In this document: positions 1-34,503 of the stretch, in pieces | How the letters are laid out: every line of letters begins with the position of its first letter | Numbering within the stretch: the stretch's first letter is position 1 | NCBI GenBank assembly: GCA_964364345.1 | Contig: CAYILQ010000002.1 | Location: 1-36,209 of the forward strand | DNA length: 36,209 bases | Reading direction: 5' to 3' | Source of the DNA: an uncultured Candidatus Saccharibacteria bacterium | GTDB lineage: Bacteria; Patescibacteriota; Minisyncoccia; 2-02-FULL-40-12; IGHO2-01-FULL-4-A | Notes under the pieces: generated by a model | Databases searched by the model: none | What the model was told of the DNA's origin: nothing | The model's input: only the letters and a program-made list of their open reading frames with translations | Position numbers and translations under genes: made by a program

Positions 1-112
1 GTCGCAGTCAAAAATCAGGAATTGCAGCAGAAAGGGGTTTTGGAACCATCTCAATCACATCAATCCGCATTTTTGGCATTATGTTGCCGTTTGTTTACAT
101 AATAGCCGCAAA

Positions 113-2135: not shown

Positions 2136-4439
2136 TTGGACAAAATGGATTATCCCATCGAGAAAATCCGAAACATCGGCATCATCGCTCACATTGACGC
2201 TGGCAAGACAACCGTCACCGAGCGGGTTTTGTTTTACACCGGCGTTTCTCACAAGATTGGGGAGGTCCACGAGGGCGAGACCATCACCGACTGGATGGAG
2301 CAGGAACGGGAACGGGGGATTACCATTACGGCCGCGGCGGTTACCTGTTATTGGCGGCCTACTTATCAAGTAAATCAATCATCTGCCGAAGTTGCTTCTG
2401 CCGAGCTTTCGCAACCGTCAGCTCGTCCCGGTGCCGAAATTAAACCGGTCTTTGACGCCACGTCCCGGAAGTCCCGCCCCGACAATATCGGGGGCGGAGC
2501 GGCCAGAAGGCAAGGCAATATCGGCACGGGGACGGCTGCTCAACGCGTTGCGGTTCAACCTCGGCAGCGGGACGCCGAGCACCGAATAAACATCATCGAC
2601 ACCCCCGGCCACATCGATTTTACGGTCGAAGTCAAACGTTCGCTAAGAGTTCTTGACGGAGCAGTCGTGGTTTTTGACGGAGTGGCCGGGGTGGAGCCCC
2701 AATCGGAAACCAACTGGCGTTACGCCGACGAGTACGGCGTGCCCCGGATTTGTTTTATCAACAAACTTGATCGTTTGGGCGCTTCCTTTGAACGATCTTT
2801 CAGGTCAATTCTTGAGCGCTTGACCCCCTATGCCGTCAGGATGCAACTGCCCGATGGCGAGGAAGACAATTTCAAAGGCGTGGTTAATCTTTTGGAAATG
2901 AAATATTACGTCTTTGAAGGCGATCACGGCGAAAGGGTGGTGGAACAGCCGATTCTTTCAGCCCAACTGATGAAAGCTGCCGAAGTTGCCCGCCATGAAC
3001 TGGTTGAAAAAATTGTTGAGCACGACGACCAGGCAATGCACGACTACTTGGAGGGTAAAGAAATTCCCGTCCAACGTTTGCGGGAGATTTTGAGAAAAGC
3101 CGCCATCGCCAACAAACTGGTGCCGGTTTTCACCGGTTCGGCTTTGCGTAACAAGGGTGTTCAATTTGTTCTTGACGGAGTGATTGAATACTTGCCTTCC
3201 CCGATTGACAAGCCGGCAGTCAAAGGGGCTGAACCCAGAACCGGTCAGGAAATCACCCGCCAGCCCGATGAAAAAGAACCCTTCGCGGCTTTGGCTTTCA
3301 AAATCGCGACTGATGCCTATGTCGGTCAGCTGGCATTCTTCCGGGTTTATTCGGGCGTGCTCGCCGCCGGTTCTTATGTTCTAAACAGCGTTAGCGGTCA
3401 ACAGGAACGAATCGGCCGAGTCCTGCGCATGCGAGCTAACGACCGAGAAGAGATCGGAGAAGTCTATGCCGGCAATATTGCCGCCGCTGTCGGCCTCAAA
3501 GCCACCAGAACCGGCGATACTTTGTGCGACCCGGAGAACCCGATTATTTTGGAAAAGATAATTTTCCCCGAGCCGGTAATATCATTGCGCATTGAGCCCA
3601 AGACTAAAGCCGATCAGGAAAAGATGAGTTTGGCTTTGAAGAAACTGGCCGATGAAGACCCGACGTTTAGAATCAAGACCGATGAGGAAACCGCCGAAAT
3701 GATCATTTCGGGCATGGGCGAATTGCATCTGGAAATCATCGTTGAGCGGATGAAAAGAGAATTCAACGTCGGCGCCAATGTCGGCCGGCCCCAAGTGGCC
3801 TATAAAGAGACTATTAAACAAGAGGCCCAAGCCGAGGGCAAGTACATCCGCCAATCCGGCGGCCGAGGTCAGTACGGCCATGTTTGGCTGCGGGTTGAAC
3901 CCCAGCCGCGCGGCGGCGGTTTTGAGTTTATTGATGAGATCAAAAGCGGGGTCATCCCCAACGAGTTTATTCCGGCGATAGAGAAGGGGGCGCGCGAAGC
4001 CATAGACAAAGGCGTGGTCGCCGGCTTTCCCCTGGTGGACATGGCGGTGGCAGTTTATGATGGTTCCTACCACGAGGTTGACTCGTCGGAGATTGCCTTC
4101 AAAATCGCCGCTTCGGCGGCATTGCAGGAGGCGGTCAAGCGGGCCAAGCCGGTGATTCTTGAACCGATTATGAAAGTCGAGGTGATTGTGCCGGAGAAGT
4201 TTTTGGGCGAAGTCATGGGCGATCTTAATAGCCGACGCGGCCGAATTGAACAGACCAGCGACCGTTCGCCATTGAATCTCAAAGTTATTGACGCCAAGGT
4301 GCCCTTGTCAGAAATGTTTGGCTACGCCACCACCATCCGGTCACTGTCAGAAGGCCGCGGCTCTTACACCATGGAATTCAGCCGCTACGAGGAAGTGCCG
4401 GCTGGTATTGCAGAGTTGATCAAAGAAGGCAAGAAATAG
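2136..4439 (+). CDS. fusA: Elongation factor G carrying a 75-aa insertion in the G domain
   Basis: 767 aa with AHIDAGKTT (G1), DTPGHIDF (G3), NKLDR (G4) and full domains II-V ([27 protein letters not shown]). About 70 aa longer than typical EF-G because of the segment at 2355-2579. Confidence 0.95.
2355..2579. repeat. GC-rich imperfect palindromic element translated in frame inside fusA
   Basis: Arms 2383-2394/2556-2567 pair at 11/12 and 2423-2437/2521-2535 at 13/15, with a central GC hairpin near 2475-2496. Shares GTGCCGAAATT and GTTCAAnnTCGGCAGCGGGACG with 22925-23015. Confidence 0.65.
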
Positions 4440-4627: not shown

Positions 4628-4733
4628 CTGTAGGGAAACCTAAGCATTGGCATCTGCCCCGACCCCGCCAGGGCGGGATCGAGGATCCACGATCCCGCCA
4701 TGGCGGGATCGGGAGAATAGGTCTTCCCTACAG
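4628..4733. repeat. 106-bp nested palindrome in the leader of the RRM-protein gene
   Basis: The outer stem pairs CTGTAGGGAAACCTA (4628-4642) with TAGGTCTTCCCTACAG (4718-4733). Inside are CCCGCC-AG-GGCGGG (4664-4677), GGGATCG/CGATCCC, and the perfect 20-bp palindrome GATCCCGCCATGGCGGGATC (4691-4710). Confidence 0.7.
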
Positions 4734-5752: not shown

Positions 5753-5986
5753 ATGCCAAAAGTAGAAATCTATACCACTCCCTATTGCGCCTATTGCAAA
5801 ATGGCCAAGGAGTATTTTACCAAAAACAATATCCAGTACACCGAATACGATGTGGCTGCTGACGTTGCCCGGCGCCAGGAAATGCTTGATAAAACCCACC
5901 AGTTCGGGGTGCCCGTCATAATAATTGATGGTAAAATTGTGATTGGCTTTGACCGGCCCAAGATTAACCAGTTGTTGGGGTTATAG
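5753..5986 (+). CDS. Glutaredoxin-like / NrdH-like small redoxin
   Basis: 77 aa starting MPKVEIYTTPYCAYCKMAKE with a CxxC motif, then a GVPVIIIDGK thioredoxin-fold signature. The longer ORF 5492..5986 overlaps the opposite-strand gene and was trimmed to this ATG. Confidence 0.85.
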   Translation: MPKVEIYTTPYCAYCKMAKEYFTKNNIQYTEYDVAADVARRQEMLDKTHQFGVPVIIIDGKIVIGFDRPKINQLLGL

Positions 5987-6162
5987 ACCTCACACTATGA
6001 AATTGCGTTTAGAAGCAACAAAAACAGATGAGACGCGCAGTTTTGGAGCGTGGCAAAATGTGAGCCGTACCCGGCGGTACGGTGAACATTTTTCCCGCGA
6101 AAAACAAGCGTATCGCTGTTTTTGTTGTCTTATTGAGTGCAATTTCATAGTGTGAGGTCTAT
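5983..6162. repeat. 180-bp long hairpin element with perfect 24-bp termini
   Basis: ATAGACCTCACACTATGAAATTGC (5983-6006) is the exact reverse complement of 6139-6162. There is a second 15-bp arm pair (AAGCAACAAAAACAG / CTGTTTTTGTTGTCTT) and a central CCGTACC-CGGC-GGTACGG hairpin. It overlaps the upstream stop codon and ends 9 nt before the SOD ATG. Confidence 0.85.
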
Positions 6163-6171
6163 AGGCTAAAC

Positions 6172-6831
6172 ATGGATTCTAAACCTCTGCCATTCAAAAA
6201 ACTCAACGGTATTTCCGAAAAAACTCTGGAGATCCACCACGACAAGCTTTATGTCGGCTATGTAAAGAAGGTTGATGAGATTGAGGAGAAGCTGGGAAAA
6301 CTAAGGGACGAGATTATAGCCGGTACGGCCCCGGGCGGGAATGCGACTTACAGCGAACTTCGGGCCTTAAAAGACGCCGAGACTTTTGCCGTCAACGGCG
6401 TCTATCTTCACGAGTGGTATTTTGATGTCTTAGGCGTCCCCGTGCCTGATATTGATACCGGCCTTGGGCGCGAAGGGACCGAGGGCGGCGCTTACTCAAA
6501 GGCCCCGGAATTGAGCAAAGCGATTTCTGAAAAATGGGGCTCGGTTGAAAATTTCATGAGATATTTTTCTGAATGCGGCATGGCTTCGCGCGGTTGGTCG
6601 CTTCTGGTTTGGGACACCAAGCGGGGAAGACTGATGCAGTACAACGGCGACGCCCACAATCAAGGCGGGGTCTGGGGCTGCCTCCCCATCATCGTCCTTG
6701 ACGTTTACGAACACGCCTATTTCATTGACTTCGGCTCCGACCGCAAGGCCTACATTGAAGCTTTCTGGCGGAATCTCAATTGGTCAGCGGCAGAGGCATT
6801 ATTTCTCACGGTTAGAAATGTTAAGTTATAA
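6172..6831 (+). CDS. Fe/Mn-family superoxide dismutase
   Basis: N-terminal LEIHHDKLYVGYV, mid LHEWYF, and C-terminal DVYEHAYFIDFGSDRKAYIEAFWRNLNW (the D-x-[WY]-E-H-A-Y signature). Has a short extra loop before the SEKWGS segment. Confidence 0.85.
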   Translation: MDSKPLPFKKLNGISEKTLEIHHDKLYVGYVKKVDEIEEKLGKLRDEIIAGTAPGGNATYSELRALKDAETFAVNGVYLHEWYFDVLGVPVPDIDTGLGREGTEGGAYSKAPELSKAISEKWGSVENFMRYFSECGMASRGWSLLVWDTKRGRLMQYNGDAHNQGGVWGCLPIIVLDVYEHAYFIDFGSDRKAYIEAFWRNLNWSAAEALFLTVRNVKL

Positions 6832-8648: not shown

Positions 8649-9623
8649 ATGCTATACGATCTGATAATTATAGGAGGGTCAGCGGCGGCGACTGCCGCGG
8701 GCATTTACGCTGCTCGGCGGAATTTGAATTTTAAGATCATTACCAAGGATTTTGGCGGCGAAGTGGCCACTTCGGGCGAGATCGGCAACTGGCCGGGCAT
8801 TACCCAAACTGACGGTGTAGCTTTGACTCAACAATTTAAGGAGCACCTTAGGTTTTACCATGTTGAGCCGGAAGAGGGAGTTTGGGTTGAGAAAATTACC
8901 CGTCAAGATGACGGCACTTTCTGCATAACCGCGACCAAAGACGGCCAACCAAAGATGGCAGTTGAGAAGCTCCCCGACGGCTCCCAGCCAGCCCGGCGCT
9001 GTGATTATGTAACTAAGACCTTAATCTTGGCCACCGGCGTTCATCCCCGGGAGCTTAACATCCCGGGCGAGAAAGAGTTCCGCAACAAAGGGGTGAGTTA
9101 CTGTTCCGTTTGTGATTTGCCTGTTTTTGCTGGAAAAATTGTAGCAACCGTCGGCGGCGGGAACTCGGCGCTGGAGTCGGCTCTAATGGGTACCGACATT
9201 GCTTCCAAAGTTTATGTCGTCAACAAAAACCCTCAATTCAAAGGCGACCAGATTTTGATTGATAATCTAACGCGGAAAAAAAACGTTGAAATAATCTACA
9301 GCGCCAAGACTACGCGAATTACTGGCAGTGAGTTTGTGAATGGCTTAAAATACACTGACAAGGACGGCAAAGAGCAGGAGCTGAAAGTTGACGGCATCTT
9401 TGTCCATATCGGCATGGTGCCGAACAGCGGTGTCGCGCCCGAAGGCACAGAGAAGAATCAATTCGGCGAGATCATAGTCAACAAAAACTGTGAGACCAAC
9501 ATCCCTGGTCTTTACGCCGCCGGCGATGTCACCGACGTGCCCCACAAGCAAATCGTCATCGCCGCCGGCCAAGGGACTTGCGCGGTGCTGTCAGCGGTCA
9601 ATTACTTGAACCGACTCAAATAA
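8649..9623 (+). CDS. trxB: Thioredoxin-disulfide reductase
   Basis: 324 aa with IIIGGSAAATAA (FAD), the CSVCD redox CxxC, GGGNSALESA (NADPH) and the AAGDVTD motif. Confidence 0.85.
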   Translation: MLYDLIIIGGSAAATAAGIYAARRNLNFKIITKDFGGEVATSGEIGNWPGITQTDGVALTQQFKEHLRFYHVEPEEGVWVEKITRQDDGTFCITATKDGQPKMAVEKLPDGSQPARRCDYVTKTLILATGVHPRELNIPGEKEFRNKGVSYCSVCDLPVFAGKIVATVGGGNSALESALMGTDIASKVYVVNKNPQFKGDQILIDNLTRKKNVEIIYSAKTTRITGSEFVNGLKYTDKDGKEQELKVDGIFVHIGMVPNSGVAPEGTEKNQFGEIIVNKNCETNIPGLYAAGDVTDVPHKQIVIAAGQGTCAVLSAVNYLNRLK

Positions 9624-9668
9624 GTGCAAATAAGCCGATGCCAATTTACGAATAATGCGAATCTACAA

Positions 9669-10220
9669 ATGAAAAATATGATTTATCTCGGCTCCGATCA
9701 CAGAGGATACGAGTTGAAGGAGAAAATCAAGAAGTGGCTTTTAGATTGGGGTTATCAGTCTGAAGACTGCGGCGCTTTTGAATATGACGAAAAAGACGAC
9801 TATCCGGACTTTGTTCATGGAGTCGCCCAAAAAGTTTCCGCAGACCCGGAAAATTCAAAAGCGATCATTCTGGGCGGTTCCGGACAGGGTGAGGCAATGG
9901 TGGCGAACCGGTATAAAGGTGTCAGAGCGGCGGTTTTTTACGGGCCCCCGTTTCAGTTTAAGATGATGTCGTGGTCTAAATGGCTTATCTTAGGCAGCGG
10001 GGGGCTTAATGTGGCCCAGAAGAGCGAATTTTCCGTTCTGCAAAAACTTGTTAAACTGTCTCGCGAACACAATGATGCCAATGTCTTGTCTCTGGGCGCT
10101 TCCTTCGTTGATGACGACGTGGCCCAAAAGATAATCAAACTCTGGCTGGAGACACCGTTTAGCGGCGAAGAGAGGCATATTAGGCGCCTTGGTAAAATAG
10201 AGGATTTGAAAAATGACTAG
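9669..10220 (+). CDS. rpiB: RpiB/LacA/LacB-family ribose-5-phosphate isomerase
   Basis: MKNMIYLGSDHRGYELKEKI..., SGQGEAMVANR, LSREHNDANVLSLGA and a C-terminal ERHIRR. The ORF opens at 9624 but ATG 9669 or 9678 fit the family N-terminus. About 22 extra residues precede LSREHND. Confidence 0.8.
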   Translation: MKNMIYLGSDHRGYELKEKIKKWLLDWGYQSEDCGAFEYDEKDDYPDFVHGVAQKVSADPENSKAIILGGSGQGEAMVANRYKGVRAAVFYGPPFQFKMMSWSKWLILGSGGLNVAQKSEFSVLQKLVKLSREHNDANVLSLGASFVDDDVAQKIIKLWLETPFSGEERHIRRLGKIEDLKND

Positions 10221-10461
10221 TCACAAGATTAATTTAATTGTTTCCGTTATTCTCGGCGTGATTGCGGGACTTTATGTTTCTTTGCAGCCTCCTCACATTT
10301 TCTGCTTTGACGATTGCCCGGTACCTATTTTAGAGAAAAGGGTTACCGTTGGTTTGGGAGTCTTCGCTTTCATATTTTTGATTGTCTTTATTTTTTTGGA
10401 ACTGGTAAGGTTCTTCAGAACTAAGCGGATCGTCGTAAAGAACCGCGGTACTGGAGATTGA
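10213..10461 (+). CDS. Hypothetical small membrane protein (two TM helices)
   Basis: 82 aa. The ATG overlaps the rpiB stop (ATGACTAG). Two hydrophobic helices and a basic tail. Confidence 0.5.
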   Translation: MTSHKINLIVSVILGVIAGLYVSLQPPHIFCFDDCPVPILEKRVTVGLGVFAFIFLIVFIFLELVRFFRTKRIVVKNRGTGD

Positions 10462-10463
10462 CT

Positions 10464-11204
10464 TGAGAGTACTCTCATGGTGACTTGAGGTGCGACCTCA
10501 AATAAATGAGAAAGGTAAAGTTTGTCAAAGGAGAGTTTTTCCATGTCTATAATCGTGGCGTGGATAAGCGCAATATTTTCCTGGATCAGGGGGATTATTT
10601 GAGGTTTTGCAAAGCGCTTAAATTTTTTAATTCCGAGAGTCCTTGCTGGATAGCAACGGTTAACAGAAAAGACCAAACTCCTTCCCCCGAAGATCAATTG
10701 GTGGATGTAATCTGCTTTTGTTTAATGCCTAATCATTATCATCTGCTTTTGCGGCCAATAACCGAAAATGGGGTGACCAAGTTCATGCGTAAACTAAACA
10801 CCGGCTATACTATTTATTTTAATATTAAGCATCAGAGAACCGGTAGATTGTTTGAAAATAAATTTAAAGCCATCCATGTTGATAACGACCTGTACCTTAA
10901 ACACCTTACTCGATATATCCACTTAAACCCGCTTGATCTGTATCAAGGTGAATGGCGGGAGGGCAAAGTAGGGAACGCCAAATCATCCTTGCGATACATA
11001 GAGGATTATCCGTGGTCAAGTTATTCCAGCTATGTTTCGAAATTTAAGCGCAATGATATAATTAACCCTAAACCGCTAATGGAAATCTTTGGAGGCGAAA
11101 ACTATGAAAACTTTGTTGCCTCTTGGACAGCACGTGATTTCGATACGGTCAGACCATTGACGCTGGAATAGTTTGTGTTTTGTTGAGGTCGCACCTCAAT
11201 AAAT
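10464..11204 (+). mobile_element. IS200/RAYT-like unit: Y1 (HUH) transposase bounded by terminal hairpins
   Basis: TTGAGGT-GCG-ACCTCAA (10485-10501) and TTGAGGT-CGC-ACCTCAA (11183-11199) have the same stem and complementary loops, and each is followed by (A)TAAAT. They lie 715 bp end to end, and a 14-bp palindrome TGAGAGTACTCTCA (10464-10477) sits just upstream. Confidence 0.7.
10506..11171 (+). CDS. IS200-like / REP-associated tyrosine (Y1, HUH) transposase
   Basis: 221 aa. HUH motif in CLMPNHYHLLLRP and a catalytic-Tyr motif RYIHLNP, as in the Y1_Tnp (PF01797-type) RAYT-like proteins. Confidence 0.85.
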   Translation: MRKVKFVKGEFFHVYNRGVDKRNIFLDQGDYLRFCKALKFFNSESPCWIATVNRKDQTPSPEDQLVDVICFCLMPNHYHLLLRPITENGVTKFMRKLNTGYTIYFNIKHQRTGRLFENKFKAIHVDNDLYLKHLTRYIHLNPLDLYQGEWREGKVGNAKSSLRYIEDYPWSSYSSYVSKFKRNDIINPKPLMEIFGGENYENFVASWTARDFDTVRPLTLE

Positions 11205-11207
11205 CTT

Positions 11208-12200
11208 ATGGCTGAAGTTTTTGTAACAAGACCTATCCCAAATCGAGGAATTGAAATTCTTAAGGCCGAAGGGTTTGATGTTGTCATAAACGAGATAGCC
11301 AGAGAGCGGGCGGCGACGAAGGAGGAGATGTTGGCTGCTCTGGGGCAAGCTCGAAATGAAGGAAAGCCCTTCAGTGCTTTGCTTTCGGTCTTGACTGAAG
11401 AAATTGACGCCGAAATTATGGATGCTGCCGGACCACAACTTAAAATTATCGCTAATTATGCGGTCGGTTTTGACAATATTGATCTGGCGGCGGCTAAACA
11501 ACGAAGGATCATGGTGACTAATACGCCGGAAGTGCTTACTAATACGGTGGCCGAACACACCTTTGCTTTAATGCTGGCCATTGCTCATCGGGTTTCTGAA
11601 GCCGATCGGTTCAGCCGCGCGGGATTATATAAAGCTTGGGGACCAGAACTGCTTTTGGGTACCGATGTTTCAGGCAAGACCTTGGGTGTAATTGGTCTTG
11701 GCCGGATTGGCTCGCGAGTGGCTCACCACGCTGTCAAGGGCTTTGGCATGAAAGTCATGTACACTGACCCCAAACCCAATCCAGACTTTGAGAGGGAATA
11801 TGGAGCAATTTACGCGGCCAGTGTTGATGAGCTTTTACCTCAAGGCGATTTTGTGTCAATCCACGCGCCGTTGTTGGATTCGACCCGGCACTTGATAAAT
11901 GAGGCCAGGCTCAAGATGATGAGACCGACCGCTTACTTGATAAACACTTCGCGCGGCCCGATAATTGATGAGAAGGCTCTGGCTGCAGCCTTGGTGCAGG
12001 GTTGGATCAAGGGCGCGGCCATTGATGTTTTTGAAAACGAGCCCGAGATTACTCCCGAGCTAAAAACGCTTGATAACATAATCTTGACCCCCCACATCGC
12101 CTCGGCGACCGCGGAAACCAGAAACAAGATGGCCGTTCTCGCCGCCGAAAACATTATTGAAGCTTTGGAAGGCAAAATCCCGCCCAATTTAGTTAAATAG
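11208..12200 (+). CDS. D-isomer-specific 2-hydroxyacid dehydrogenase (glyoxylate/hydroxypyruvate reductase-like)
   Basis: 330 aa with the GVIGLGRIGSRVA NAD-binding motif, INTSRGPIID and the LTPHIASAT catalytic His region. Confidence 0.9.
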   Translation: MAEVFVTRPIPNRGIEILKAEGFDVVINEIARERAATKEEMLAALGQARNEGKPFSALLSVLTEEIDAEIMDAAGPQLKIIANYAVGFDNIDLAAAKQRRIMVTNTPEVLTNTVAEHTFALMLAIAHRVSEADRFSRAGLYKAWGPELLLGTDVSGKTLGVIGLGRIGSRVAHHAVKGFGMKVMYTDPKPNPDFEREYGAIYAASVDELLPQGDFVSIHAPLLDSTRHLINEARLKMMRPTAYLINTSRGPIIDEKALAAALVQGWIKGAAIDVFENEPEITPELKTLDNIILTPHIASATAETRNKMAVLAAENIIEALEGKIPPNLVK

Positions 12201-12203
12201 CCA

Positions 12204-12255
12204 CTAGCCGCTAGCGACTAGCCACTGACACTAGTCGCTAAGGGCTAGTCGCTAG
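12204..12255. repeat. CTAG-rich palindromic spacer
   Basis: CTAGCGACTAG (12211-12221) is the reverse complement of CTAGTCGCTAG (12245-12255) and pairs over its first 10 nt with CTAGTCGCTA (12231-12240). Confidence 0.7.
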
Positions 12256-12263
12256 TTGCTTGT

Positions 12264-15478: not shown

Positions 15479-16335
15479 GAACCTTGGCCGAATACTTCCA
15501 AGATGCTAAAGCTAATCGATGGGCGATTGGCCATTTTAATTTTTCCACGGCCGATCAGTTAAAAGCGATTGTGGAAACGGCGGCGGAGCTCAAGTCGCCG
15601 GTGATGGCGGGGACTTCGGAGGGCGAGGCCAAGTTTATCGGTTACGATCAAGCGGTGGCTTTGGCGCGGTCCTATCAAGAAGAGGGCCATGCCGTTTGGC
15701 TCAACGCCGACCATCACAAGAGTTTTGAATCTTGCAAGATGGCTATTGACGCTGGTTATGACACGGTTTTGATTGATGCCTCTAGATTGCCGCTGGCGGA
15801 AAACATTGCTTTGACAAAGAAAGTCGTTGATTATGCTAGCTCGATCAATGCCGAGATTGCCGTTGAAGGCGAACTTGGCTATTTAAGAGGGGAGTCGCAA
15901 GTTCAGGAAAAAGTTGAGATCAGCCCCAGCGATTACACCCAGCCCCAGGAGGCTTCAGATTTTGTCAGTCGTACCGGCGTCGGCCGACTGGCGATTGTTT
16001 TCGGCAATATCCATGGCATCGTTACCCAACAAGAGGAACATCTCGATGCCAACGCCCTCAAAGCGATCGCGGCAGCTGTGCCAAATGTTGCCTTAGTACT
16101 CCACGGCGCCTCGGGCCTGCCGGCTGCCGAAGTTGGAGAAGCGATAGCTAACGGTATCGCCAATATCCACATCAACACCGAGCTCCGGCTGGTTTATCAC
16201 GATAAATTGCACGAAGAGTTGGAAAAAGAGCCGGGACAAACTACGCCCTACAAATTCCTGACCCCATCTCTTGAAGCGATGAAGGAATTAATCAGCCAAA
16301 AACTCAAACTTTTCGGCTCGGAGAACAAGATCTAG
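15475..16335 (+). CDS. fba: Class II fructose-bisphosphate aldolase
   Basis: 286 aa with GHFNF, ADHHKS, VEGELG, GNIHG and LVLHGASG motifs of class II ketose-bisphosphate aldolases. Confidence 0.9.
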   Translation: MRTLAEYFQDAKANRWAIGHFNFSTADQLKAIVETAAELKSPVMAGTSEGEAKFIGYDQAVALARSYQEEGHAVWLNADHHKSFESCKMAIDAGYDTVLIDASRLPLAENIALTKKVVDYASSINAEIAVEGELGYLRGESQVQEKVEISPSDYTQPQEASDFVSRTGVGRLAIVFGNIHGIVTQQEEHLDANALKAIAAAVPNVALVLHGASGLPAAEVGEAIANGIANIHINTELRLVYHDKLHEELEKEPGQTTPYKFLTPSLEAMKELISQKLKLFGSENKI

Positions 16336-17291
16336 ATTTTTATTTCGACTACATCGCCGTCTTGGGCAATGTAATCGCGGCCGACGAGGTGGAGTTTGCC
16401 TTGCTGGCGGGCGGCGGACCAACTGCCGGTCTGAAGCAGATCGCGCCACTGGATGACCTCGGCGCGGATGAAGCGCTTTTCAAAATCGGTGTGAATCACT
16501 CGAGCGGCTTGGGGGATGAGAGTCCCTCTTTTTGTTGTCCAAGCTCGAGTTTCGTCTTCGCCGGTGGTCAAAAAAGTTATCAAACCCAAGGCGTCGTAGC
16601 ATTTCTTAATCAGAGAATCCAAGCCGCTTTCATTTAACCCTACTTCTGCCAAATATATTTTCTGCTCCTCGAGCGCGGCTTCCGAAAGCAGCAGCTCAAA
16701 AGGCGCCGAGAGAACAACATAATCATTATTTTCGGCAGGGTTTTCAAGATTTTCCGGAGTCCATTTTTCTTTCAGTTGTTTTTCTGACACGTTGAAAATG
16801 TAAATTATTTTTTTGCCTGTTAGTAAATCAAGCGGGGGCAAGTCGCACTCTCCTTTTTTAGTTTCTCTTTTTTCCTTGGTTTCTAAATCAGCCAGTTCCA
16901 GTTCGGTTTTAATTATTGCGATATCATCAGTCGGGTTAATTCTTTTGTGGACGTGGATGATGCTTTCGTCTTCAAAAACTCTGACCACTTCGGCAATAGC
17001 GTTAACTTCGCGGATGTGGGCTAAAAACTTGTTGCCCAAGCCCTCGCCCTGCGCCGCCCCCTTTACCAGTCCGGCGATGTCAATGAACTCAATCGCCGTG
17101 GGGATGATTTTGGCCGAATGCGACATTTTGGCCAATAACTCCAGCCGCTCATCCGGCACGGCCACCACCCCGACATTCGGGTCAATGGTAGTGAAGGGAT
17201 AGTTGGAAATATCCACCTGTTTTTTGGTTAGGGCCTGAAACAGAGTTGACTTGCCAACGTTTGGCAGGCCTACGATTCCGATTGAGAGCAT
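16332..17291 (-). CDS. ychF: Redox-regulated ATPase YchF (Obg-like)
   Basis: GIVGLPNVGKSTLFQALT P-loop, DIAGLVKGA, and a C-terminal TGS-like RAW...G and GDVVEI. 319 aa, shorter than typical. Confidence 0.9.
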   Translation of the reverse strand: MLSIGIVGLPNVGKSTLFQALTKKQVDISNYPFTTIDPNVGVVAVPDERLELLAKMSHSAKIIPTAIEFIDIAGLVKGAAQGEGLGNKFLAHIREVNAIAEVVRVFEDESIIHVHKRINPTDDIAIIKTELELADLETKEKRETKKGECDLPPLDLLTGKKIIYIFNVSEKQLKEKWTPENLENPAENNDYVVLSAPFELLLSEAALEEQKIYLAEVGLNESGLDSLIKKCYDALGLITFLTTGEDETRAWTTKRGTLIPQAARVIHTDFEKRFIRAEVIQWRDLLQTGSWSAARQQGKLHLVGRDYIAQDGDVVEIKI

Positions 17292-17314: not shown

Positions 17315-18658
17315 ATGCGATTCAATCCAGAAATTTTCAGAGCCTATGATGTTAGGGGGGTTTATGATAAAGATCTTGATTGTGATTTTGCGGTTGGTCT
17401 TGGAACGGCGTTAGTCAGCTATCTCAAGGGTCCAAAGATCCTGGTGGCTCACGATGATCGCGATTCTTCAATTGCCCTCGCCCAGTCGCTGATGAATGGT
17501 GTGATGGCAGGCGGTAGCAAGGTAATTTACCTTGGCCTAGCGACGACACCTTTTTTTAATTTTGTTTTCGGCCAGCTTGGGGTTGCCGGTGGGGCAATGG
17601 TTACAGCTTCTCATAACCCCCCTCAATACGCCGGGTTCAAGATTTTTGGCAGGGGCGGCAATCCTCTTGGTCTTGATTCGGGCCTGGGGATTATAAAGGA
17701 GTTGGTTGAAAAGAATCAGTTTGATAAATTCAGAAAACAAGGCGACCTGATCAAGCCAGACCGTAAGAATTTGCTCGAGAAGTATGTAAAATTCGTTGCT
17801 GCCAAAGCGAAATCGAGGCCTGGAGAATTAAGGGATTTAAAAGTAAAGATTTCGGGGTCAGGGGTAGCAATGGAGGAAGCAGGGCTTCTGGCCAAAATCT
17901 GTGGCTTATCGGTTGACGACAATGGCGATATCCGTTTTCTGTTTGACGGTGATGCTGACCGGTTAGCCGTCATCAATGAAAATGGCGATCCCGTCCGTTC
18001 CGATCACCTCGTAGGTCTTTTGGCCAAGGATGCCGTTAAGTTTTTGTCTAAACCGAAGGTGGTTTACGATTCGCGATTTTCCAAAGGGGTGACCCAGAAG
18101 TTTGGCGAGTGGGGGGTCAAAGGCTTTCGGTCCCGGGTGGGTCGGGTTTTCGTTAGGGGTGAGATGATTAAACGCCAAGCGGATATCGGCGGTGAACTTT
18201 CCGGCCACGTTTATTTCAAAGAAGCCAATTACCACGAGCTGCCGCTTTTGGCGATGTTGAGACTTCTCAAAATATTGGCCCGAAGCAAAATGTCGATCGT
18301 GGAATTAGTTAAACCGTTCCAAACTTGGTATAACTCCGGCGAGATTAATTTTGAGATCGCGGATTTACCGAATCGGCCGGACTCCGGCTCGGAGCCTCCA
18401 AATAGACCACTATCATTTCACTACGATCGTGGTAAAATGATAGTGTGGGATTTGTTCGAGTTACTAAAACAAAAATTCAGCGACGGGGAATTTGATGACT
18501 TGGACGGCTTGACCATTGAATACCCGGATTGGTGGTTTAACATCCGGCCCTCAAACACCGAGCCGGTGCTGCGGCTTGTGGTTGAAGCAAAATCCCAAGA
18601 ACTGTTAGAGCAAAAGATATCAGAAGTTTCAGGGTTAATAAAAACCGCTCTGTTTTAG
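17315..18658 (+). CDS. Phosphomannomutase/phosphoglucomutase (alpha-D-phosphohexomutase)
   Basis: TASHNPPQYAGFK active-site Ser loop, DGDADR Mg loop, GGELSGH sugar loop and RPSNTEPVLR phosphate loop. About 30 extra residues precede the C-terminal domain. Confidence 0.9.
   Translation: MRFNPEIFRAYDVRGVYDKDLDCDFAVGLGTALVSYLKGPKILVAHDDRDSSIALAQSLMNGVMAGGSKVIYLGLATTPFFNFVFGQLGVAGGAMVTASHNPPQYAGFKIFGRGGNPLGLDSGLGIIKELVEKNQFDKFRKQGDLIKPDRKNLLEKYVKFVAAKAKSRPGELRDLKVKISGSGVAMEEAGLLAKICGLSVDDNGDIRFLFDGDADRLAVINENGDPVRSDHLVGLLAKDAVKFLSKPKVVYDSRFSKGVTQKFGEWGVKGFRSRVGRVFVRGEMIKRQADIGGELSGHVYFKEANYHELPLLAMLRLLKILARSKMSIVELVKPFQTWYNSGEINFEIADLPNRPDSGSEPPNRPLSFHYDRGKMIVWDLFELLKQKFSDGEFDDLDGLTIEYPDWWFNIRPSNTEPVLRLVVEAKSQELLEQKISEVSGLIKTALF
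18408..18445. repeat. 38-bp palindrome family, copy 1, inside the phosphohexomutase CDS
   Basis: CACTATCATTTCACTACGATCGTGGTAAAATGATAGTG matches the consensus CACTATCATTTTACCACGATCGTGGTAAAATGATAGTG at 36/38. Translated as LSFHYDRGKMIV. Confidence 0.85.
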
Positions 18659-22621: not shown

Positions 22622-23707
22622 TTAAGACCGCGATTTCTTAAAGGTTTCTATGGCGGATGCGTCAAGAGGATCAACCCCTAAATGGCGAGCTAAATCAAAG
22701 GAAGTCGAGACCGCCAGGTTGTAGTTGCCAAGAATTTTTTCAAGTCTGCCGCCGCCCGTCAGTTTGATGACTTCGTGATCAATACCCATAGCCGCCAGAA
22801 ACGAGGCGAACTTTTCCAGTATGTCTTTGTCGGCTTTGTCTTCGTCAGGGTCGGCTAGGATTATCGGAAAAGGTTTAAGTGTTCCAACGGCATTGCCAAT
22901 GAACTGCCGACCTTGCTCGCCCTCGTGCCGAAATTGAGCTTGCCTTTGGCACGAAGGGACGGAAGGACAAAAGGGACTTGCTGGCAAAGCCAAGTTCAAT
23001 TTCGGCAGCGGGACGGTCAATGTCGGCGCCGGGACGCTCGGCGCCGGGACGGCGAAGCCGGCCAATTCATTGTGGGCCGCTTCGGGAAAGTAGTTTGAGA
23101 ACGAATGAATCTTGCAATCCTCATTAAAATTAGTCTTCCAGAACTTGGCCAGATAACGCCATTGGTAGGACGAGTAAATCAGAGGTGTTTTGAAACCGAT
23201 CCGACTGGAGAACCTAGGGCCAACAACAGGTTTGGTCTGGATATTGGTTGGCAGCTTGAAATCAATGATAGCAGAATTGTTAAGCAGTGTCAACAAAGAG
23301 GCCAGCATATAGCCAACTCCGAGTCTTGGTGGTACTGGATCGTCAGGTAGTTTGATTAAAAGTGCGTCATGTTCTCGGGCAGTCTTGGCCAACTCACCAC
23401 CCTTAGTTATAGCTGCTGTGGGGATTCCCAATTCTTGGGCCGCCTTAAAAGATGAAATTGTCTCTTCGGTATTGCCCGACCAGGAAGTGCAAATGATCAG
23501 GTGCTCACGACCGGCCCAATGGGGGAGACCAAAACCCCGCTGGATGTAACAATTGAAGCCGTCAAGCCAGAGCGTTGAGATTATCTCTCCCGGAATCGCC
23601 GAACCGCCCAGGCCGCAGAAAATTACCCGGCTAAAATCACCGGAAACCTTGACATTTTTGGCCGCTTTAGCCCCTTCGGCTAGCTGCCTGGGAAAGTTAA
23701 TGGTCAT
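22622..23707 (-). CDS. Bifunctional phosphoglucose/phosphomannose isomerase (SIS domain) with a ~57-aa insertion
   Basis: 361 aa. SIS motifs (FCGLGGSAIPG, ICTSWSGNTEET) and PEAAHNE in the C-terminal half. A proline-rich low-complexity block (aa ~219-275) interrupts it. Confidence 0.8.
   Translation of the reverse strand: MTINFPRQLAEGAKAAKNVKVSGDFSRVIFCGLGGSAIPGEIISTLWLDGFNCYIQRGFGLPHWAGREHLIICTSWSGNTEETISSFKAAQELGIPTAAITKGGELAKTAREHDALLIKLPDDPVPPRLGVGYMLASLLTLLNNSAIIDFKLPTNIQTKPVVGPRFSSRIGFKTPLIYSSYQWRYLAKFWKTNFNEDCKIHSFSNYFPEAAHNELAGFAVPAPSVPAPTLTVPLPKLNLALPASPFCPSVPSCQRQAQFRHEGEQGRQFIGNAVGTLKPFPIILADPDEDKADKDILEKFASFLAAMGIDHEVIKLTGGGRLEKILGNYNLAVSTSFDLARHLGVDPLDASAIETFKKSRS
22904..23062. 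repeat. GC-rich palindromic element (same family as 2355-2579) translated in frame inside pgi
   Basis: Arms 22925-22942 / 22991-23008 pair at 16/18. TCGGC(A/G)(G/C)CGGGACG occurs three times (23002, 23023, 23038). Shares an 11/11 and a 20/22 core with the fusA element in the same plus-strand orientation, although the host gene is on the minus strand. Confidence 0.65.
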
Positions 23708-27528: not shown

Positions 27529-28563
27529 ATGCGAGATAACGTTTTGGCAACTTTGGCCTATTATGATGTTTTGGACTTTCCGCTCAAAGCCGAGGAGGTT
27601 TTGAAGTGCCTGATTAGACTTGATCCAAGATCACTATCATTTTACCACGCCCGCCAAAATTTTTGGCCTAGCGCCTCTGGCGCGGATCATGAAAACGGAT
27701 CCAAAAACTTAGGCGGGCACGATCGTGGTAATTTGATAGTGACCATTGCTGATATTAAAAAAATTCTTGACCAGTTGATCCTGGAAAAATTGGCCGATTT
27801 TAATCAGGGTTACTATTTCTTACCTGGTCGCGATTACCTCGCACCTCTGCGGCTTAAACGTGAAAAAATTTCCCGAAAAAAATGGGCCAAAGCCCGGCAA
27901 GCCATCTGGTGGCTGAAGTTTATTCCTTACGTTGAAGCGGTTTTTGCTTCGGGCTCACTAGCCCTCAACAATTGCGACGAGTTAAGCGACCTGGACGTTT
28001 TGGTGGTTACCAAACATGGCCGGATTTGGCTGACCAGGTTTTGGATTACCGCCTGGCTTTCCGTCATCGGTGCCCGCCGTAAGCCGTTTGACAAAATCGC
28101 CCCCGACAAAATCTGCCTCAACCACTATATCACCGATAAGTCGCTGCGAATTCCTTTTGAAAGCATGTACAACGCCCAGAATTATGTCAATCTAAAGCCG
28201 GTGTTGATCAGAAATTGGAAGATCGTTGAAAAATTTAGGGAGGAGAATAATTGGATTAGTAAGTTCGTGATTGGAGATTGGGCGATTAGCAATGATCCGG
28301 AAAAACTTATCAGAATCAACCGACTGGCGAGACTGGTTTCCGGGATTGGCAAAACGACCCTCAATACAAAATTGGGGGATTGGTTGGAAAAAATTGCCAG
28401 AAGATATCAAATAAAACGGATCGAAGCTAACCCTTTGACCAAAAGTCCAACCGGCCATGTCGTTTACTCTGACGAACAACTGGCCTTTCACCCTGATTCC
28501 CCGGAGTCTTCGGTCTTGGAAAGATTTGATCAGAAGCTTGCCGAATTGAAAATAGTTGTCTGA
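27529..28563 (+). CDS. Hypothetical protein with a polymerase-beta-type nucleotidyltransferase motif
   Basis: 344 aa. ASGSLALNNCDELSDLDVLVV (GS-x-SDxD). The N-terminal region is interrupted by a translated repeat element. Confidence 0.65.
   Translation: MRDNVLATLAYYDVLDFPLKAEEVLKCLIRLDPRSLSFYHARQNFWPSASGADHENGSKNLGGHDRGNLIVTIADIKKILDQLILEKLADFNQGYYFLPGRDYLAPLRLKREKISRKKWAKARQAIWWLKFIPYVEAVFASGSLALNNCDELSDLDVLVVTKHGRIWLTRFWITAWLSVIGARRKPFDKIAPDKICLNHYITDKSLRIPFESMYNAQNYVNLKPVLIRNWKIVEKFREENNWISKFVIGDWAISNDPEKLIRINRLARLVSGIGKTTLNTKLGDWLEKIARRYQIKRIEANPLTKSPTGHVVYSDEQLAFHPDSPESSVLERFDQKLAELKIVV
27632..27741. repeat. Composite element: 38-bp palindrome (copy 2) split by a 68-bp inner palindrome
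   Basis: The outer halves are CACTATCATTTTACCACG (27632-27649) and CACGATCGTGGTAATTTGATAGTG (27718-27741). The inner CCCGCCAAAATTTTTGG...CCAAAAACTTAGGCGGG (27650-27717) is flanked by a direct CACG duplication. Confidence 0.8.
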
Positions 28564-28602: not shown

Positions 28603-28629
28603 TTGGCACTCTGGGGTTGGGAATGCCAA
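28603..28629 (+). promoter_or_regulatory. CIRCE-like inverted repeat (putative HrcA operator)
   Basis: TTGGCACTC-N9-GAATGCCAA compared with the CIRCE consensus TTAGCACTC-N9-GAGTGCTAA. Positioned just after the -10, upstream of groES. Confidence 0.7.
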
Positions 28630-28713
28630 TAACATAATGCCAATACGCGAATTGATCCGAATATCACGAATTATTCGGAGTATTCGGATAAATTCGTAGT
28701 TTGGGACTATTTT

Positions 28714-30895
<2,182 letters not shown>

Positions 30896-34429: not shown

Positions 34430-34503
34430 CACTATCATTTTACCACGATCGTGAGAATCTGATAGTACTATTATTTTACCACGATCGTGGTAAAATGATA
34501 GCG
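34430..34503. repeat. 38-bp palindrome family, copies 3 and 4 in tandem (intergenic)
   Basis: 34430-34467 matches the consensus at 33/38 and 34466-34503 at 35/38. Preceded by the 14-nt tandem ATTATG(G/A)GTTCTCG x2 (34394-34421). Confidence 0.85.

What the first reader, a model, noticed from the sequence alone, without database searches (positions are those of the whole stretch)
18408..18445. A 38-bp near-perfect palindrome lies inside the phosphohexomutase coding sequence
CACTATCATTTCACTACGATCGTGGTAAAATGATAGTG differs at 2 positions from a perfect palindrome consensus that occurs three more times in this window: 27632-27741, 34430-34467 and 34466-34503.

Here it is read through in frame as LSFHYDRGKMIV. 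It sits in a ~30-aa extra segment between the EINFEI strand and the C-terminal domain of the enzyme. A GC mini-hairpin, GCCGGACTCCGGC (18376-18388), lies next to it.

A REP/MITE-sized palindrome inside an enzyme gene is unusual and links this gene to the other insertion events in the window.
Basis: seen in the sequence. Interest (0 to 1): 0.75.

Follow-up and report, generated by a model that had tools for sequence, protein, structure and literature searches.

The report
In-frame 36-bp palindromic repeat element
The palindrome inside the sugar-phosphate mutase gene is one copy of a tiny 12-codon repeat scattered through two related groundwater ultra-small (CPR) bacteria, which sits between genes and also inside essential genes, where it is read through as 12 extra amino acids, much like the "selfish DNA" known from Rickettsia genes.

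Summary
CACTATCATTTCACTACGATCGTGGTAAAATGATAGTG lies at 18408-18445 inside a PMM/PGM gene and is read as LSFHYDRGKMIV. Three more copies are in the window. About 30 more, many perfect, are in a related genome from the same aquifer.

The repeating unit is 36 nt, or 12 codons. Only one of its three frames is open. Eight copies lie in genes: PMM, a nucleotidyltransferase-like ORF, SecA (in both genomes), YchF, MnmA, RNase HII and MPG. Seven use the open frame, and the eighth has lost its stop codon.

The window's own YchF is an empty site, exactly 12 aa shorter than the filled orthologue. PMM orthologues lack about 24 aa at the site. AlphaFold places most of the insert in a disordered surface loop.

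The arms also cap a recurrent 113-nt form, so they behave as the termini of a non-autonomous mobile element. No target-site duplication is seen. An IS200/RAYT-like Y1 transposase gene lies at 10506-11171, but its flanking hairpins differ from the palindrome, so the mobiliser is unproven.

One result is unexplained. The SecA copies in the two genomes match 36/36 while their flanks are only 50-65% identical.

Verdict: a new, very small variant of Rickettsia palindromic element (RPE)/REP-like selfish DNA in CPR bacteria.

The parts
18408..18445 (.). The palindromic element copy in question. The 36-nt unit is 18409-18444. It differs at 2 left-arm positions from the consensus CACTATCATTTTACCACGATCGTGGTAAAATGATAGTG and is translated as LSFHYDRGKMIV (PMM residues 366-377).
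17315..18658 (+). Host gene: phosphomannomutase/phosphoglucomutase (Pfam PGM_PMM_I, III and IV). The fold is predicted intact, with mean pLDDT 89.
18362..18445 (+). Lineage-specific extra loop, residues 350-377 (DLPNRPDSGSEPPNRPLSFHYDRGKMIV). It is about 24 aa longer than in the 23 aligned homologues. pLDDT is below 50 for residues 350-370. Only the last 12 aa come from the palindrome.
18376..18388 (.). GC mini-hairpin GCCGGACTCCGGC next to the palindrome. It is unique in the window and is not a recognisable copy of the element.
27632..27741 (.). Composite copy. The left arm is 27632-27649 and the right arm is 27722-27741. They are split at the centre by a unique 68-nt structured core (27650-27717) that is flanked by a 4-nt direct duplication CACG (27646-27649 and 27718-27721). 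The whole 110 nt is read in the same open frame as SLSFYH...DRGNLIV.
27529..28563 (+). Host ORF of the composite copy, with a weak nucleotidyltransferase-domain match. Its orthologue in the relative (L008 4502-5497) lacks the segment.
34430..34503 (.). Two abutting intergenic copies, with 36-nt units at 34431-34466 and 34467-34502. The first carries the variant right arm CGTGAGAATCTGATAGT, which is also found in the MnmA copy of the related genome.
16726..16755 (-). Empty site in the window's ychF (16332-17291). The orthologue in the related genome (L021 5763-6872) carries the element here and is exactly 12 aa (36 nt) longer at this point.
10485..11199 (+). Candidate trans-acting mobiliser; the link is inferred, not shown. 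It is an IS200/RAYT-like Y1 (HUH) transposase gene at 10506-11171, bracketed by the 17-nt hairpins TTGAGGTGCGACCTCAA (10485-10501) and its reverse complement (11183-11199). The unit is 715 bp and is absent from the syntenic site of the relative.

Best explanation
The 38-mer is one copy of a short, non-autonomous, mobile or formerly mobile palindromic repeat family. The family is carried by two related CPR (Patescibacteria) lineages from the Hainich aquifer.

The unit is 36 nt, or 12 codons. It adds no detectable target-site duplication, so an insertion never shifts the reading frame. Only one of its three frames lacks stop codons. Because the sequence is a palindrome, the open frame is the same in both orientations. 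Insertions into genes therefore survive only when they land in that frame and in a tolerant surface region. There they are transcribed and translated as roughly L-S-F-Y-H-D-R-G-K-M-I-V.

That is what happened in PMM. The element sits in a variable loop at the start of domain 4 and leaves the enzyme fold intact.

The two 18-nt arms are the recognition ends of the element. The same arms cap a 113-nt form in the relative and a different 110-nt form in the window.

My favoured mechanism is inferred, not shown. I propose mobilisation in trans as a single-stranded hairpin by an HUH/Y1 (IS200/RAYT-type) transposase, a class that makes no target duplication. One such gene lies 7 kb upstream in the window.

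Shown: the family, the in-frame coding copies, a filled/empty pair, the shared termini and the loop location.
Inferred: translation of the insert, the mode of transposition and the identity of the enzyme.
For: Family and non-randomness:
- There are four copies in the window against 0 expected.
- A genome-wide scan gave 14 loci in one MAG, while all other hits were single-arm singletons.
- A census found 28 unique copies with their flanks.

The 36-nt unit and absence of a target duplication:
- The filled YchF is exactly 12 aa longer than the empty window orthologue.
- The tandem copies start 36 nt apart.
- The outermost bases vary independently.

Frame filter:
- The consensus translates as HYHFTTIVVK**, TIILPRSW*NDS or LSFYHDRGKMIV.
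- PMM, the NTase-like ORF, SecA (twice), YchF, MnmA and RNase HII all use the open frame.
- The MPG copy is in frame 2 with its stop mutated away.

Insertion rather than native sequence:
- The 23 aligned PMM homologues lack about 24 aa at the site.
- MnmA is 15 aa longer than E. coli MnmA exactly at the element.

Tolerated location: AF2 gives mean pLDDT 89, with residues 350-370 below 50, between strand 339-347 and helix 367-387.

Termini behaviour:
- The 75-nt core occurs only between the arms, in both orientations.
- The window has a different core at the same centre.

Subfamily structure typical of replicating elements: the same asymmetric arm variant occurs in the window (34430) and in MnmA of the relative.

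Genuine sequence: the gene and palindrome are identical in replicate assemblies.

Y1 transposase in the window: Pfam Y1_Tnp at 36 bits against a cut-off of 23, with the HUH motif NHYHLLL and the motif YIHLNP.
Against: - No autonomous element with these termini was found in about 300 kb of held sequence from the two genomes.
- The Y1 gene in the window is flanked by a different hairpin, TTGAGGTGCGACCTCAA, which does not occur next to any palindrome copy.
- That gene scores below the NCBIfam RAYT cut-off (36 against 80).
- No homologue of it is seen in the held part of the relative, which has the most copies and the most perfect ones.
- A perfect, symmetric palindrome is unlike the asymmetric, imperfect hairpins of IS200/IS605 ends and of REPs.
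- In SecA the element causes no net length change relative to other CPR SecA proteins. In MPG there is none relative to human AAG. So simple insertion is not the whole story.
- The SecA copies of the two genomes match 36/36 while their flanks are 50-65% identical. Passive decay of an old selfish insertion does not predict this.
- Translation of the insert is inferred from frame usage only. There are no proteomic or transcript data.
Confidence: 0.72

Rival explanations
1. It is a classical MITE, with the 18-19-nt arms acting as terminal inverted repeats bound by a DDE transposase. The 38-mer would be a minimal 'two TIRs only' deletion derivative of the 113-nt form, mobilised by cut-and-paste or copy-paste from an IS elsewhere in the genome.
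For: - The same termini occur on short and long forms with unrelated cores.
- Copies lie preferentially in AT-rich intergenic spacers.
- The 68-nt core inside the window's composite copy has its own inverted ends and a 4-nt direct duplication, CACG, a textbook MITE insertion.
- Some copies are flanked TA...TA.
Against: - The palindrome itself has no consistent direct target duplication.
- Most perfect copies are flanked C...G, and the two end bases vary independently.
- The net gain in YchF is exactly the 36-nt unit.
- No IS with these TIRs was found; no + and - arm pair lies 0.6-3 kb apart around an ORF.
Confidence: 0.18
2. The palindrome is, or has become, a functional DNA or RNA motif. Examples would be a binding site for a dimeric host protein (chromosome organisation, in the manner of parS, Noc or matS sites) or a structural hairpin. 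Its sequence would be kept by selection or by gene conversion rather than by transposition alone.
For: - The orthologous SecA copies in two genomes match 36/36, including all 12 third-codon positions, while the flanks are 50-65% identical.
- Both genomes keep the same consensus and hold perfect copies.
- Some variants change both arms symmetrically: GTC/GAC, GCC/GGC and TATT/AATA. Four pairs changed on both sides, and 15-30 of 500 shuffles reach this level.
- The flanks are symmetric (TC|GA, with an A-rich left side and a T-rich right side), and 4 of 28 copies carry 5-9-nt perfect flanking inverted repeats.
Against: - Sites of this kind normally arise by point mutation and are 16 bp or shorter. 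Here whole 12-codon blocks are added to genes.
- Copies occur in tandem and nested.
- Several copies are clearly decaying: PMM has 2 changes, MnmA and window 34430 have 4-5, and MPG has lost half.
- The covariation support is only modest.
- No candidate binding protein is known.
Confidence: 0.08
3. It is an artefact: an assembly chimera at a repeat, an adapter or MDA-type inverted chimera, or simply native PMM sequence that happens to be palindromic.
For: - The source is a low-coverage metagenome, at about 3.5-6x.
- Contigs of the relative often break inside the 113-nt form.
Against: - Replicate samples R2 and R3, assembled independently, carry the identical PMM gene and palindrome; the contigs are 99.8% and 99.0% identical to the window over 3.8 and 7.4 kb.
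- The reading frame is kept through every coding copy.
- Copies differ by point mutations and fall into subfamilies.
- Both flanks of each copy belong to the same genome by G+C content and synteny.
- Chance expectation for a copy is 0.
Confidence: 0.02

Closest known systems
Rickettsia palindromic elements (RPE; Ogata et al. 2000, as summarised in PMC10969869)
   Same: - A dispersed palindromic repeat found between genes and inside unrelated housekeeping genes.
- Always compatible with the host reading frame.
- Encodes a conserved peptide placed where the protein tolerates it.
- No transposase is known.
- The host is a small, reduced genome.
   Different: - RPEs are about 100-150 bp; this unit is 36 bp, a perfect palindrome of 12 codons.
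- The phylum is different (CPR/Patescibacteria rather than Alphaproteobacteria).
- No sequence relationship has been shown.
- Here an orthologous copy (SecA) is identical across diverged genomes. From my own knowledge, shared RPE sites diverge with the host gene.
REP / REPIN elements with RAYT (Y1 HUH) transposases (PMC3116915, PMC3337134, PMC3733652)
   Same: - A 20-40-bp palindromic repeat that forms hairpins in single strands.
- Tens of copies per genome, with a quasi-species-like master sequence and variants.
- A single-copy Y1 transposase-like gene bracketed by inverted hairpins exists in the same window.
   Different: - REPs are imperfect palindromes, essentially extragenic, and tagged by GTAG or CGTC at one end.
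- This element is a perfect palindrome without such a tag, and about a fifth of its copies are inside genes.
- The hairpins that flank the Y1 gene are a different sequence.
Bacterial MITEs that can fuse in frame (ERIC, Correia/NEMIS, BOX, Coxiella QMITE; PMC10969869)
   Same: - Conserved terminal inverted repeats around variable cores.
- Strongly folded transcripts.
- A preference for intergenic, AT-rich DNA.
- Occasional in-frame intragenic copies.
   Different: - Those elements are 100-500 bp with target-site duplications (TA for Correia).
- Here the commonest form is just the two termini (36-38 bp), and no target duplication is seen.
PARCELs, palindromic amphipathic repeat coding elements (PMC2996958, seen; details from my own knowledge)
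   Same: Palindromic DNA that is coding in both orientations and is found inside ORFs of reduced-genome bacteria.
   Different: PARCELs are longer tandem intragenic repeats in surface proteins. This element is a single short unit dispersed in enzymes and in intergenic DNA.
HIP1, the highly iterated palindrome GCGATCGC of cyanobacteria (from my own knowledge)
   Same: It shares the central CGATCG core and is abundant within coding sequence.
   Different: HIP1 is 8 bp and spreads by point substitution, not by inserting codons. There is no evidence of a relationship.

Membership tests
RPE-like in-frame selfish palindromic elements (functional class) | The same repeat lies inside several unrelated protein-coding genes without breaking the frame | tested here: met
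   PMM, the NTase-like ORF, SecA (twice), YchF, MnmA, RNase HII and MPG
RPE-like in-frame selfish palindromic elements (functional class) | Orthologues lack the segment, so it is an insertion rather than native sequence | tested here: met
   - YchF gains exactly 12 aa.
- PMM gains about 24 aa.
- MnmA gains 15 aa.
- Exception: SecA shows no net length change.
RPE-like in-frame selfish palindromic elements (functional class) | The insert lies in a surface or tolerant part of the protein | tested here: met
   The AF2 model of PMM has mean pLDDT 89, with residues 350-370 below 50, between a strand and a helix of domain 4. The loop is variable among orthologues.
Rickettsia RPE families proper | Length of about 100-150 bp and sequence similarity to an RPE consensus | tested here: not met
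   The unit is 36 nt. There is no Rfam hit. No RPE consensus library was available for a direct comparison.
REP/REPIN-RAYT system | A short (20-40 bp) hairpin-forming repeat in many copies | tested here: met
   The palindrome is 36-38 nt, with RNA folding energy down to -24 kcal/mol, and 28 unique copies were found in the held sequence
REP/REPIN-RAYT system | A GTAG or CGTC tetranucleotide tag at one end (PMC3733652) | tested here: not met
   The consensus CACTATC...GATAGTG contains neither tag at its ends (read directly)
REP/REPIN-RAYT system | The RAYT gene is flanked by REPs of the same family | tested here: not met
   The Y1 gene at 10506-11171 is flanked by TTGAGGTGCGACCTCAA hairpins, not by the palindrome
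REP/REPIN-RAYT system | A Y1 HUH transposase is present in the genome | tested here: inconclusive
   It is present in the window lineage: Pfam Y1_Tnp at 36 bits against a cut-off of 23, and NCBIfam REP_Tyr_transpos at 36 bits against a cut-off of 80. It was not found in the held part of the relative. Neither genome is complete here.
MITE (DDE-transposase dependent) | Conserved terminal inverted repeats | tested here: met
   The same 18-19-nt arms occur on the 38-nt, 113-nt and 110-nt forms
MITE (DDE-transposase dependent) | A direct target-site duplication flanks the element | tested here: not met
   The flanks are not direct repeats. They tend to be inverted (TC|GA; 4 of 28 copies have 5-9-nt flanking inverted repeats), and the net gain equals the 36-nt unit.
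MITE (DDE-transposase dependent) | A parent IS with the same ends | tested here: inconclusive
   None was found in the held loci. Complete genomes are not available.
IS200/IS605-derived PATE | Asymmetric ends with imperfect subterminal hairpins, inserted 3' of a fixed tetra- or pentanucleotide | tested here: not met
   The element is a symmetric perfect palindrome, and its flank preference is symmetric

The most novel reading that the evidence does not exclude
The 36-mer may be more than decaying selfish DNA. It could be an actively homogenised or selected 12-codon palindromic cassette that CPR genomes carry inside essential genes (SecA, YchF, MnmA, PMM). In this reading its DNA sequence is held identical at an orthologous site across lineages whose flanks have diverged by 35-50%. 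It would insert at the centres of palindromes: the flanks are inverted repeats, and the cores sit exactly at the centre of the element. That would imply either a new hairpin- or cruciform-targeting mobilisation mechanism, or a host function for the motif, such as a protein-binding or chromosome-organising site embedded in coding sequence.
Probability: 0.2. Interest if true: 0.85.

Novelty: new variant of a known kind. Interest (0 to 1): 0.62.

Why it matters
CPR/Patescibacteria proteins and rRNAs are known for unexplained insertions. This case gives a concrete source for some of the protein ones. A 12-codon palindromic repeat adds the same peptide to unrelated essential enzymes, and a second, GC-rich element family in the same genome does likewise (EF-G, a PGI-like protein and the SecA C-terminus).

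[quoted passage not shown] It also extends it to the smallest size yet, showing that a mobile unit can consist of little more than its two termini.

There are practical consequences:
- Such elements break metagenome assemblies.
- They inflate apparent protein novelty.
- They can mislead alignment-based annotation of CPR genes.

The identical SecA copies and the inverted-repeat flanks are testable hints of an unusual insertion or homogenisation mechanism.

Tried and rejected
- **Long-form peptides.** The 113-nt form translated in both orientations found no protein. The window's 37-aa composite peptide found nothing among 1.84 billion representatives. So long forms are not known inside called proteins, and the window's core is unique.
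- **Upstream half of the PMM loop as a decayed second copy.** Rejected. The local alignment score of 12 is matched by 65% of background windows.
- **GC hairpin at 18376-18388 as a repeat.** It is unique.
- **The 68-nt core of 27650-27717 as a repeat.** No other copy exists in the window or in any locus.
- **Known RNA families.** None match on the window or on the long form.
- **Phage or plasmid origin.** No match. The viral contig hits are single-arm singletons consistent with chance.
- **Metagenome and genome hits outside Hainich.** All are single arms, so chance.
- **Presence/absence polymorphism.** The MAG and the replicate contigs of the relative show none.
- **Close orthologues of SecA for an empty site.** The nearest is 69% identical and is itself filled.
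- **Solved-structure relatives of the Y1 protein.** None by sequence.
- **TA-duplicating (IS630/mariner-like) model.** Rejected, because the perfect copies are flanked C...G rather than TA...TA.
- **RNA-level excision of the insert.** Judged unlikely, because coding copies obey the stop-free frame.
Full report
**Observation**

The sequence CACTATCATTTCACTACGATCGTGGTAAAATGATAGTG is at 18408-18445. None of 100 dinucleotide-preserving shuffles of the window gave a match with up to 3 mismatches. It is a 19+19 palindrome with two non-complementary positions.

The repeat finder and a local-alignment sweep recover the other copies and no more:
- 27632-27741, where both arms are split by 72 nt.
- 34430-34467 and 34466-34503, two abutting copies.

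The consensus is CACTATCATTTTACCACGATCGTGGTAAAATGATAGTG. The PMM copy differs from it at two left-arm positions. This turns F-Y-H into F-H-Y and weakens the RNA hairpin from -24.1 to -17.7 kcal/mol.

The host ORF 17315-18658 is a phosphomannomutase/phosphoglucomutase with Pfam domains I, III and IV. The element is read as LSFHYDRGKMIV. GCCGGACTCCGGC is at 18376-18388 as stated, but it is unique in the window.

**Source and reality of the sequence**

The PMM protein is found on contigs from two replicate samples of the Hainich aquifer, well H51, 0.1-um fraction. These independently assembled contigs are 99.8% and 99.0% identical to the window over 3.8 and 7.4 kb, and they carry the identical palindrome. 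An assembly chimera is therefore very unlikely.

The best named homologues of PMM and SecA are Patescibacteria/Paceibacteria-type CPR bacteria.

**It is an insertion in PMM**

The 23 homologues I aligned (about 40-55% identical to the window protein; the closest in the search is 53%) have a short loop between the SGEINxx strand and the following helix. The window protein has 24 more residues there. Against solved Xanthomonas PGM, 39 query residues stand where the structure has 15.

An AlphaFold2 model built on that alignment is confident overall (mean pLDDT 89, pTM 0.87). The exception is residues 350-370, with pLDDT below 50. This stretch lies between strand 339-347 and helix 367-387. The end of the palindrome peptide is modelled as an N-terminal extension of that helix.

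Only the last 12 of the extra residues come from the palindrome. The preceding PNRPDSGSEPPN stretch, which includes the GC hairpin, shows no similarity to the element. Its alignment score of 12 is reached by 65% of background windows. This loop is also variable in other orthologues.

**The family**

A scan of one genome per species found the 18-mer ATYATTTTACCACGATCG at 14 loci of a single MAG, CAYIXQ01, whose record is labelled Candidatus Saccharibacteria. It was found only once each in 21 unrelated genomes, about the chance number. Only the CAYIXQ loci have both arms.

That MAG is a relative of the window organism. It shows 65-76% nucleotide identity with conserved gene order over window 11.2-17.3 kb and 24-33 kb.

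A metagenome scan recovered the same population in Hainich replicate R1. It also recovered lower-coverage, higher-G+C contigs that match the window lineage. All non-Hainich hits were single arms.

After removing duplicates there are 28 copies with both flanks: 21 short and 7 long. Many in the relative are perfect. The window lineage also has perfect copies (L053, and SecA on L114) besides the decayed ones in the window.

**The unit is 36 nt and frame-neutral**

The window's own ychF (16332-17291) is an empty site. The orthologue in the relative, 74% identical, carries the element and is exactly 12 residues longer at that point. The two abutting copies in the window start 36 nt apart. The first and last bases of the '38-mer' vary independently, as C/T and G/A.

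So the unit is ACTATC...GATAGT, 36 nt or 12 codons, with no sign of a duplicated target.

The consensus translates as HYHFTTIVVK**, TIILPRSW*NDS or LSFYHDRGKMIV. Only one frame is open. Because the sequence is a palindrome, this holds in either orientation.

**Coding copies**

- In the window: PMM and the nucleotidyltransferase-like ORF 27529-28563.
- In the relative: SecA, YchF, MnmA and RNase HII.
- In the window lineage elsewhere: SecA (L114) and methylpurine glycosylase MPG (L091).

Seven of the eight use the open frame. The MPG copy is in frame 2, and its TAA has been mutated away along with much of that arm. MnmA is 15 residues longer than E. coli MnmA exactly at the element.

This is the pattern expected if insertions are random with respect to frame and only stop-free ones survive. 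It also argues that the insert is translated rather than removed from the mRNA.

Most copies are intergenic, often in short spacers inside operons. Examples are rplJ-rplL, groES-groEL, and sites downstream of mltG and metG. This is despite the high coding density.

**The arms are element termini**

In the relative the same arms enclose a 75-nt, strongly folded core. This gives a 113-nt form found at six or more complete sites, in both orientations. Many contigs break inside it. The core never occurs without the arms.

The 113-nt form is open in the same frame in both orientations. Even so, none of the held copies lies in an ORF of 120 aa or more, and no database protein contains its peptide.

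The window's copy at 27632-27741 has a different, unique 68-nt core at the same centre. That core has its own inverted ends and a 4-nt direct duplication, CACG. It looks like a separate small element that inserted into the palindrome while keeping the frame (72 nt).

One asymmetric arm variant, CGTGAGAATCTGATAGT, is shared by window 34430 and by the MnmA copy of the relative. This shows subfamilies that propagate as units.

**Flanks**

The flanks are weakly symmetric:
- T at -2 and C at -1; G at +1 and A at +2.
- A-rich at -9 to -5 and T-rich at +6 to +8.

Four of 28 copies have perfect flanking inverted repeats of 5-9 nt beyond the unit, which is far above chance.

Either the element prefers the centre of pre-existing palindromes, as the cores do within the element itself, or palindromes get extended by templated repair. 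I could not decide between these.

**Candidate mobiliser**

Pfam annotation of the whole window found one transposase-like gene, 10506-11171.
- It matches Y1_Tnp (IS200-like) at 36 bits against a cut-off of 23.
- Its best NCBIfam hit is REP-associated tyrosine transposase, at 36 bits and below the equivalog cut-off of 80.
- It has an HUH motif (NHYHLLL) and a YIHLNP motif.
- It is bracketed by the 17-nt hairpin TTGAGGTGCGACCTCAA and its reverse complement, forming a 715-bp unit.
- It is absent from the syntenic rpiB/2-hydroxyacid-dehydrogenase junction of the relative.

Y1/HUH enzymes act on single-stranded hairpins and leave no target duplication, which fits the 36-nt gain. Against the link:
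- The hairpins flanking the gene are unrelated to the palindrome.
- Those hairpins occur nowhere else in the held data.
- No homologue was seen in the held part of the relative.

The link is therefore a hypothesis.

**Unexplained: SecA**

The SecA genes of the two lineages are about 69% identical in protein and about 72% in DNA. They carry the element at the same site. The 36-mer matches 36/36, whereas the 60-300 nt on either side are 50-65% identical.

Compared with seven other CPR SecA proteins there is no length difference. The element peptide replaces a native YxxREKxLG segment, with Y, R and K aligned.

A single old event followed by neutral decay does not predict identity at all 12 third-codon positions. 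Homogenisation by gene conversion from other copies, recent recombination between the co-resident lineages, re-insertion at a preferred site, and selection on the DNA itself all remain possible.

Symmetric two-arm variants exist (GTC/GAC, GCC/GGC, TATT/AATA). The statistical support for pairing-preserving change is only modest: four pairs changed on both sides, and 15-30 of 500 shuffles do as well.

**Comparison with known systems**

The closest analogue is the Rickettsia palindromic element, a palindromic repeat inserted in frame into many unrelated genes of a reduced genome (PMC10969869). This element is about four times shorter, is a perfect palindrome, and occurs in a different phylum.

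It resembles REP/REPIN elements in size, hairpin form and the presence of a RAYT-like gene. It fails three REP criteria:
- The extragenic location.
- The GTAG/CGTC tag.
- RAYT flanking by the same repeat (PMC3733652 and PMC3116915).

It resembles MITEs in having conserved termini around variable cores, but it lacks a target duplication and a known parent IS.

No Rfam family, phage or plasmid sequence matches. Full-text searches found no description of such elements in CPR or Patescibacteria.

**Verdict**

It is a new, minimal variant of a known kind of element: in-frame selfish palindromic repeats. Two features deserve follow-up, namely the palindrome-centre architecture and the invariant SecA copy.

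I am about 0.7 confident in the element-and-frame-filter explanation. I am much less confident, about 0.35, in the specific HUH/hairpin mechanism.

Noticed in passing
window 10485-11199: An IS200/RAYT-like Y1 (HUH) transposase gene (10506-11171, 221 aa, with motifs NHYHLLL and YIHLNP) is bracketed by the 17-nt hairpin TTGAGGTGCGACCTCAA and its reverse complement. Together with the small ORF 10213-10461, it is absent from the syntenic rpiB/2-hydroxyacid-dehydrogenase junction of the related genome (L021).
   Followed up: partly
window 2358-2582 (fusA), 22906-23036 (PGI-like gene, - strand); L114 1772-1897 (SecA C-terminus): This is a second, GC-rich, partly palindromic repeat family, also in frame inside essential genes. 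EF-G has about 73 extra residues between CYW and INIIDTPGH in its G domain relative to solved EF-G structures. Related DNA lies in the PGI-like gene and, at 80% identity, in the SecA C-terminal region of the same lineage.
   Followed up: partly
L059 5469-5581, L064 12666-12778, L040 13172-13284, L077 2045-2157, L042 1734-1843 and 2421-2530, L011 8-120: A 113-nt long form of the element occurs in the related genome. It has the same arms around a 75-nt highly structured core (DNA fold z-score -6.9). It occurs in both orientations, is always intergenic, and many contigs end inside it. It has no Rfam match.
   Followed up: yes
window 16332-17291 vs L021 5763-6872: The window's YchF lacks about 35 residues of the central helical domain that the related genome's YchF retains (alignment A2). 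This deletion is independent of the palindrome site.
   Followed up: no
window 27650-27721: A unique 68-nt structured element with inverted ends (CCCGCC...GGCGGG) and a 4-nt direct duplication (CACG) is inserted exactly at the centre of a palindrome copy. It keeps the host ORF in frame by adding 24 codons. No other copy was found anywhere in the held data or among protein representatives.
   Followed up: yes
window 5973-6172: A 34-nt inverted repeat pair (88% complementary) encloses 132 nt immediately upstream of the superoxide dismutase gene (6172-6831). It may be another MITE-like element.
   Followed up: no
window 35265-36199: Long arrays of 12-nt periodic CCNACNCC repeats, coding for Thr/Pro-rich peptides, occur in three blocks. 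A similar low-complexity region is present in the relative (L006 4657-5097).
   Followed up: no
window 4658-4713, 12195-12257 and 28629-28715: Other strong intergenic palindromes lie downstream of fusA, downstream of the 2-hydroxyacid dehydrogenase gene and just upstream of groES (I11, I17 and I4). They are unrelated in sequence to the element studied.
   Followed up: no
L058 9229-9924 (= L022 1926-2621): In the related genome, two short copies bracket a single 188-aa gene (9296-9862, - strand) with a Cas2/PaaX-like C-terminal motif (WRMVLFDIPE...). I recognised this motif from memory and did not test it.
   Followed up: no
window 1-55; L035 5795-5980, L028 7144-7314, L058 9952-10128: A repeat of about 175 nt is shared among several contigs of the related genome (90-100% identity). 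It matches the first 55 nt of the window at 83-87%. Its nature was not determined.
   Followed up: no
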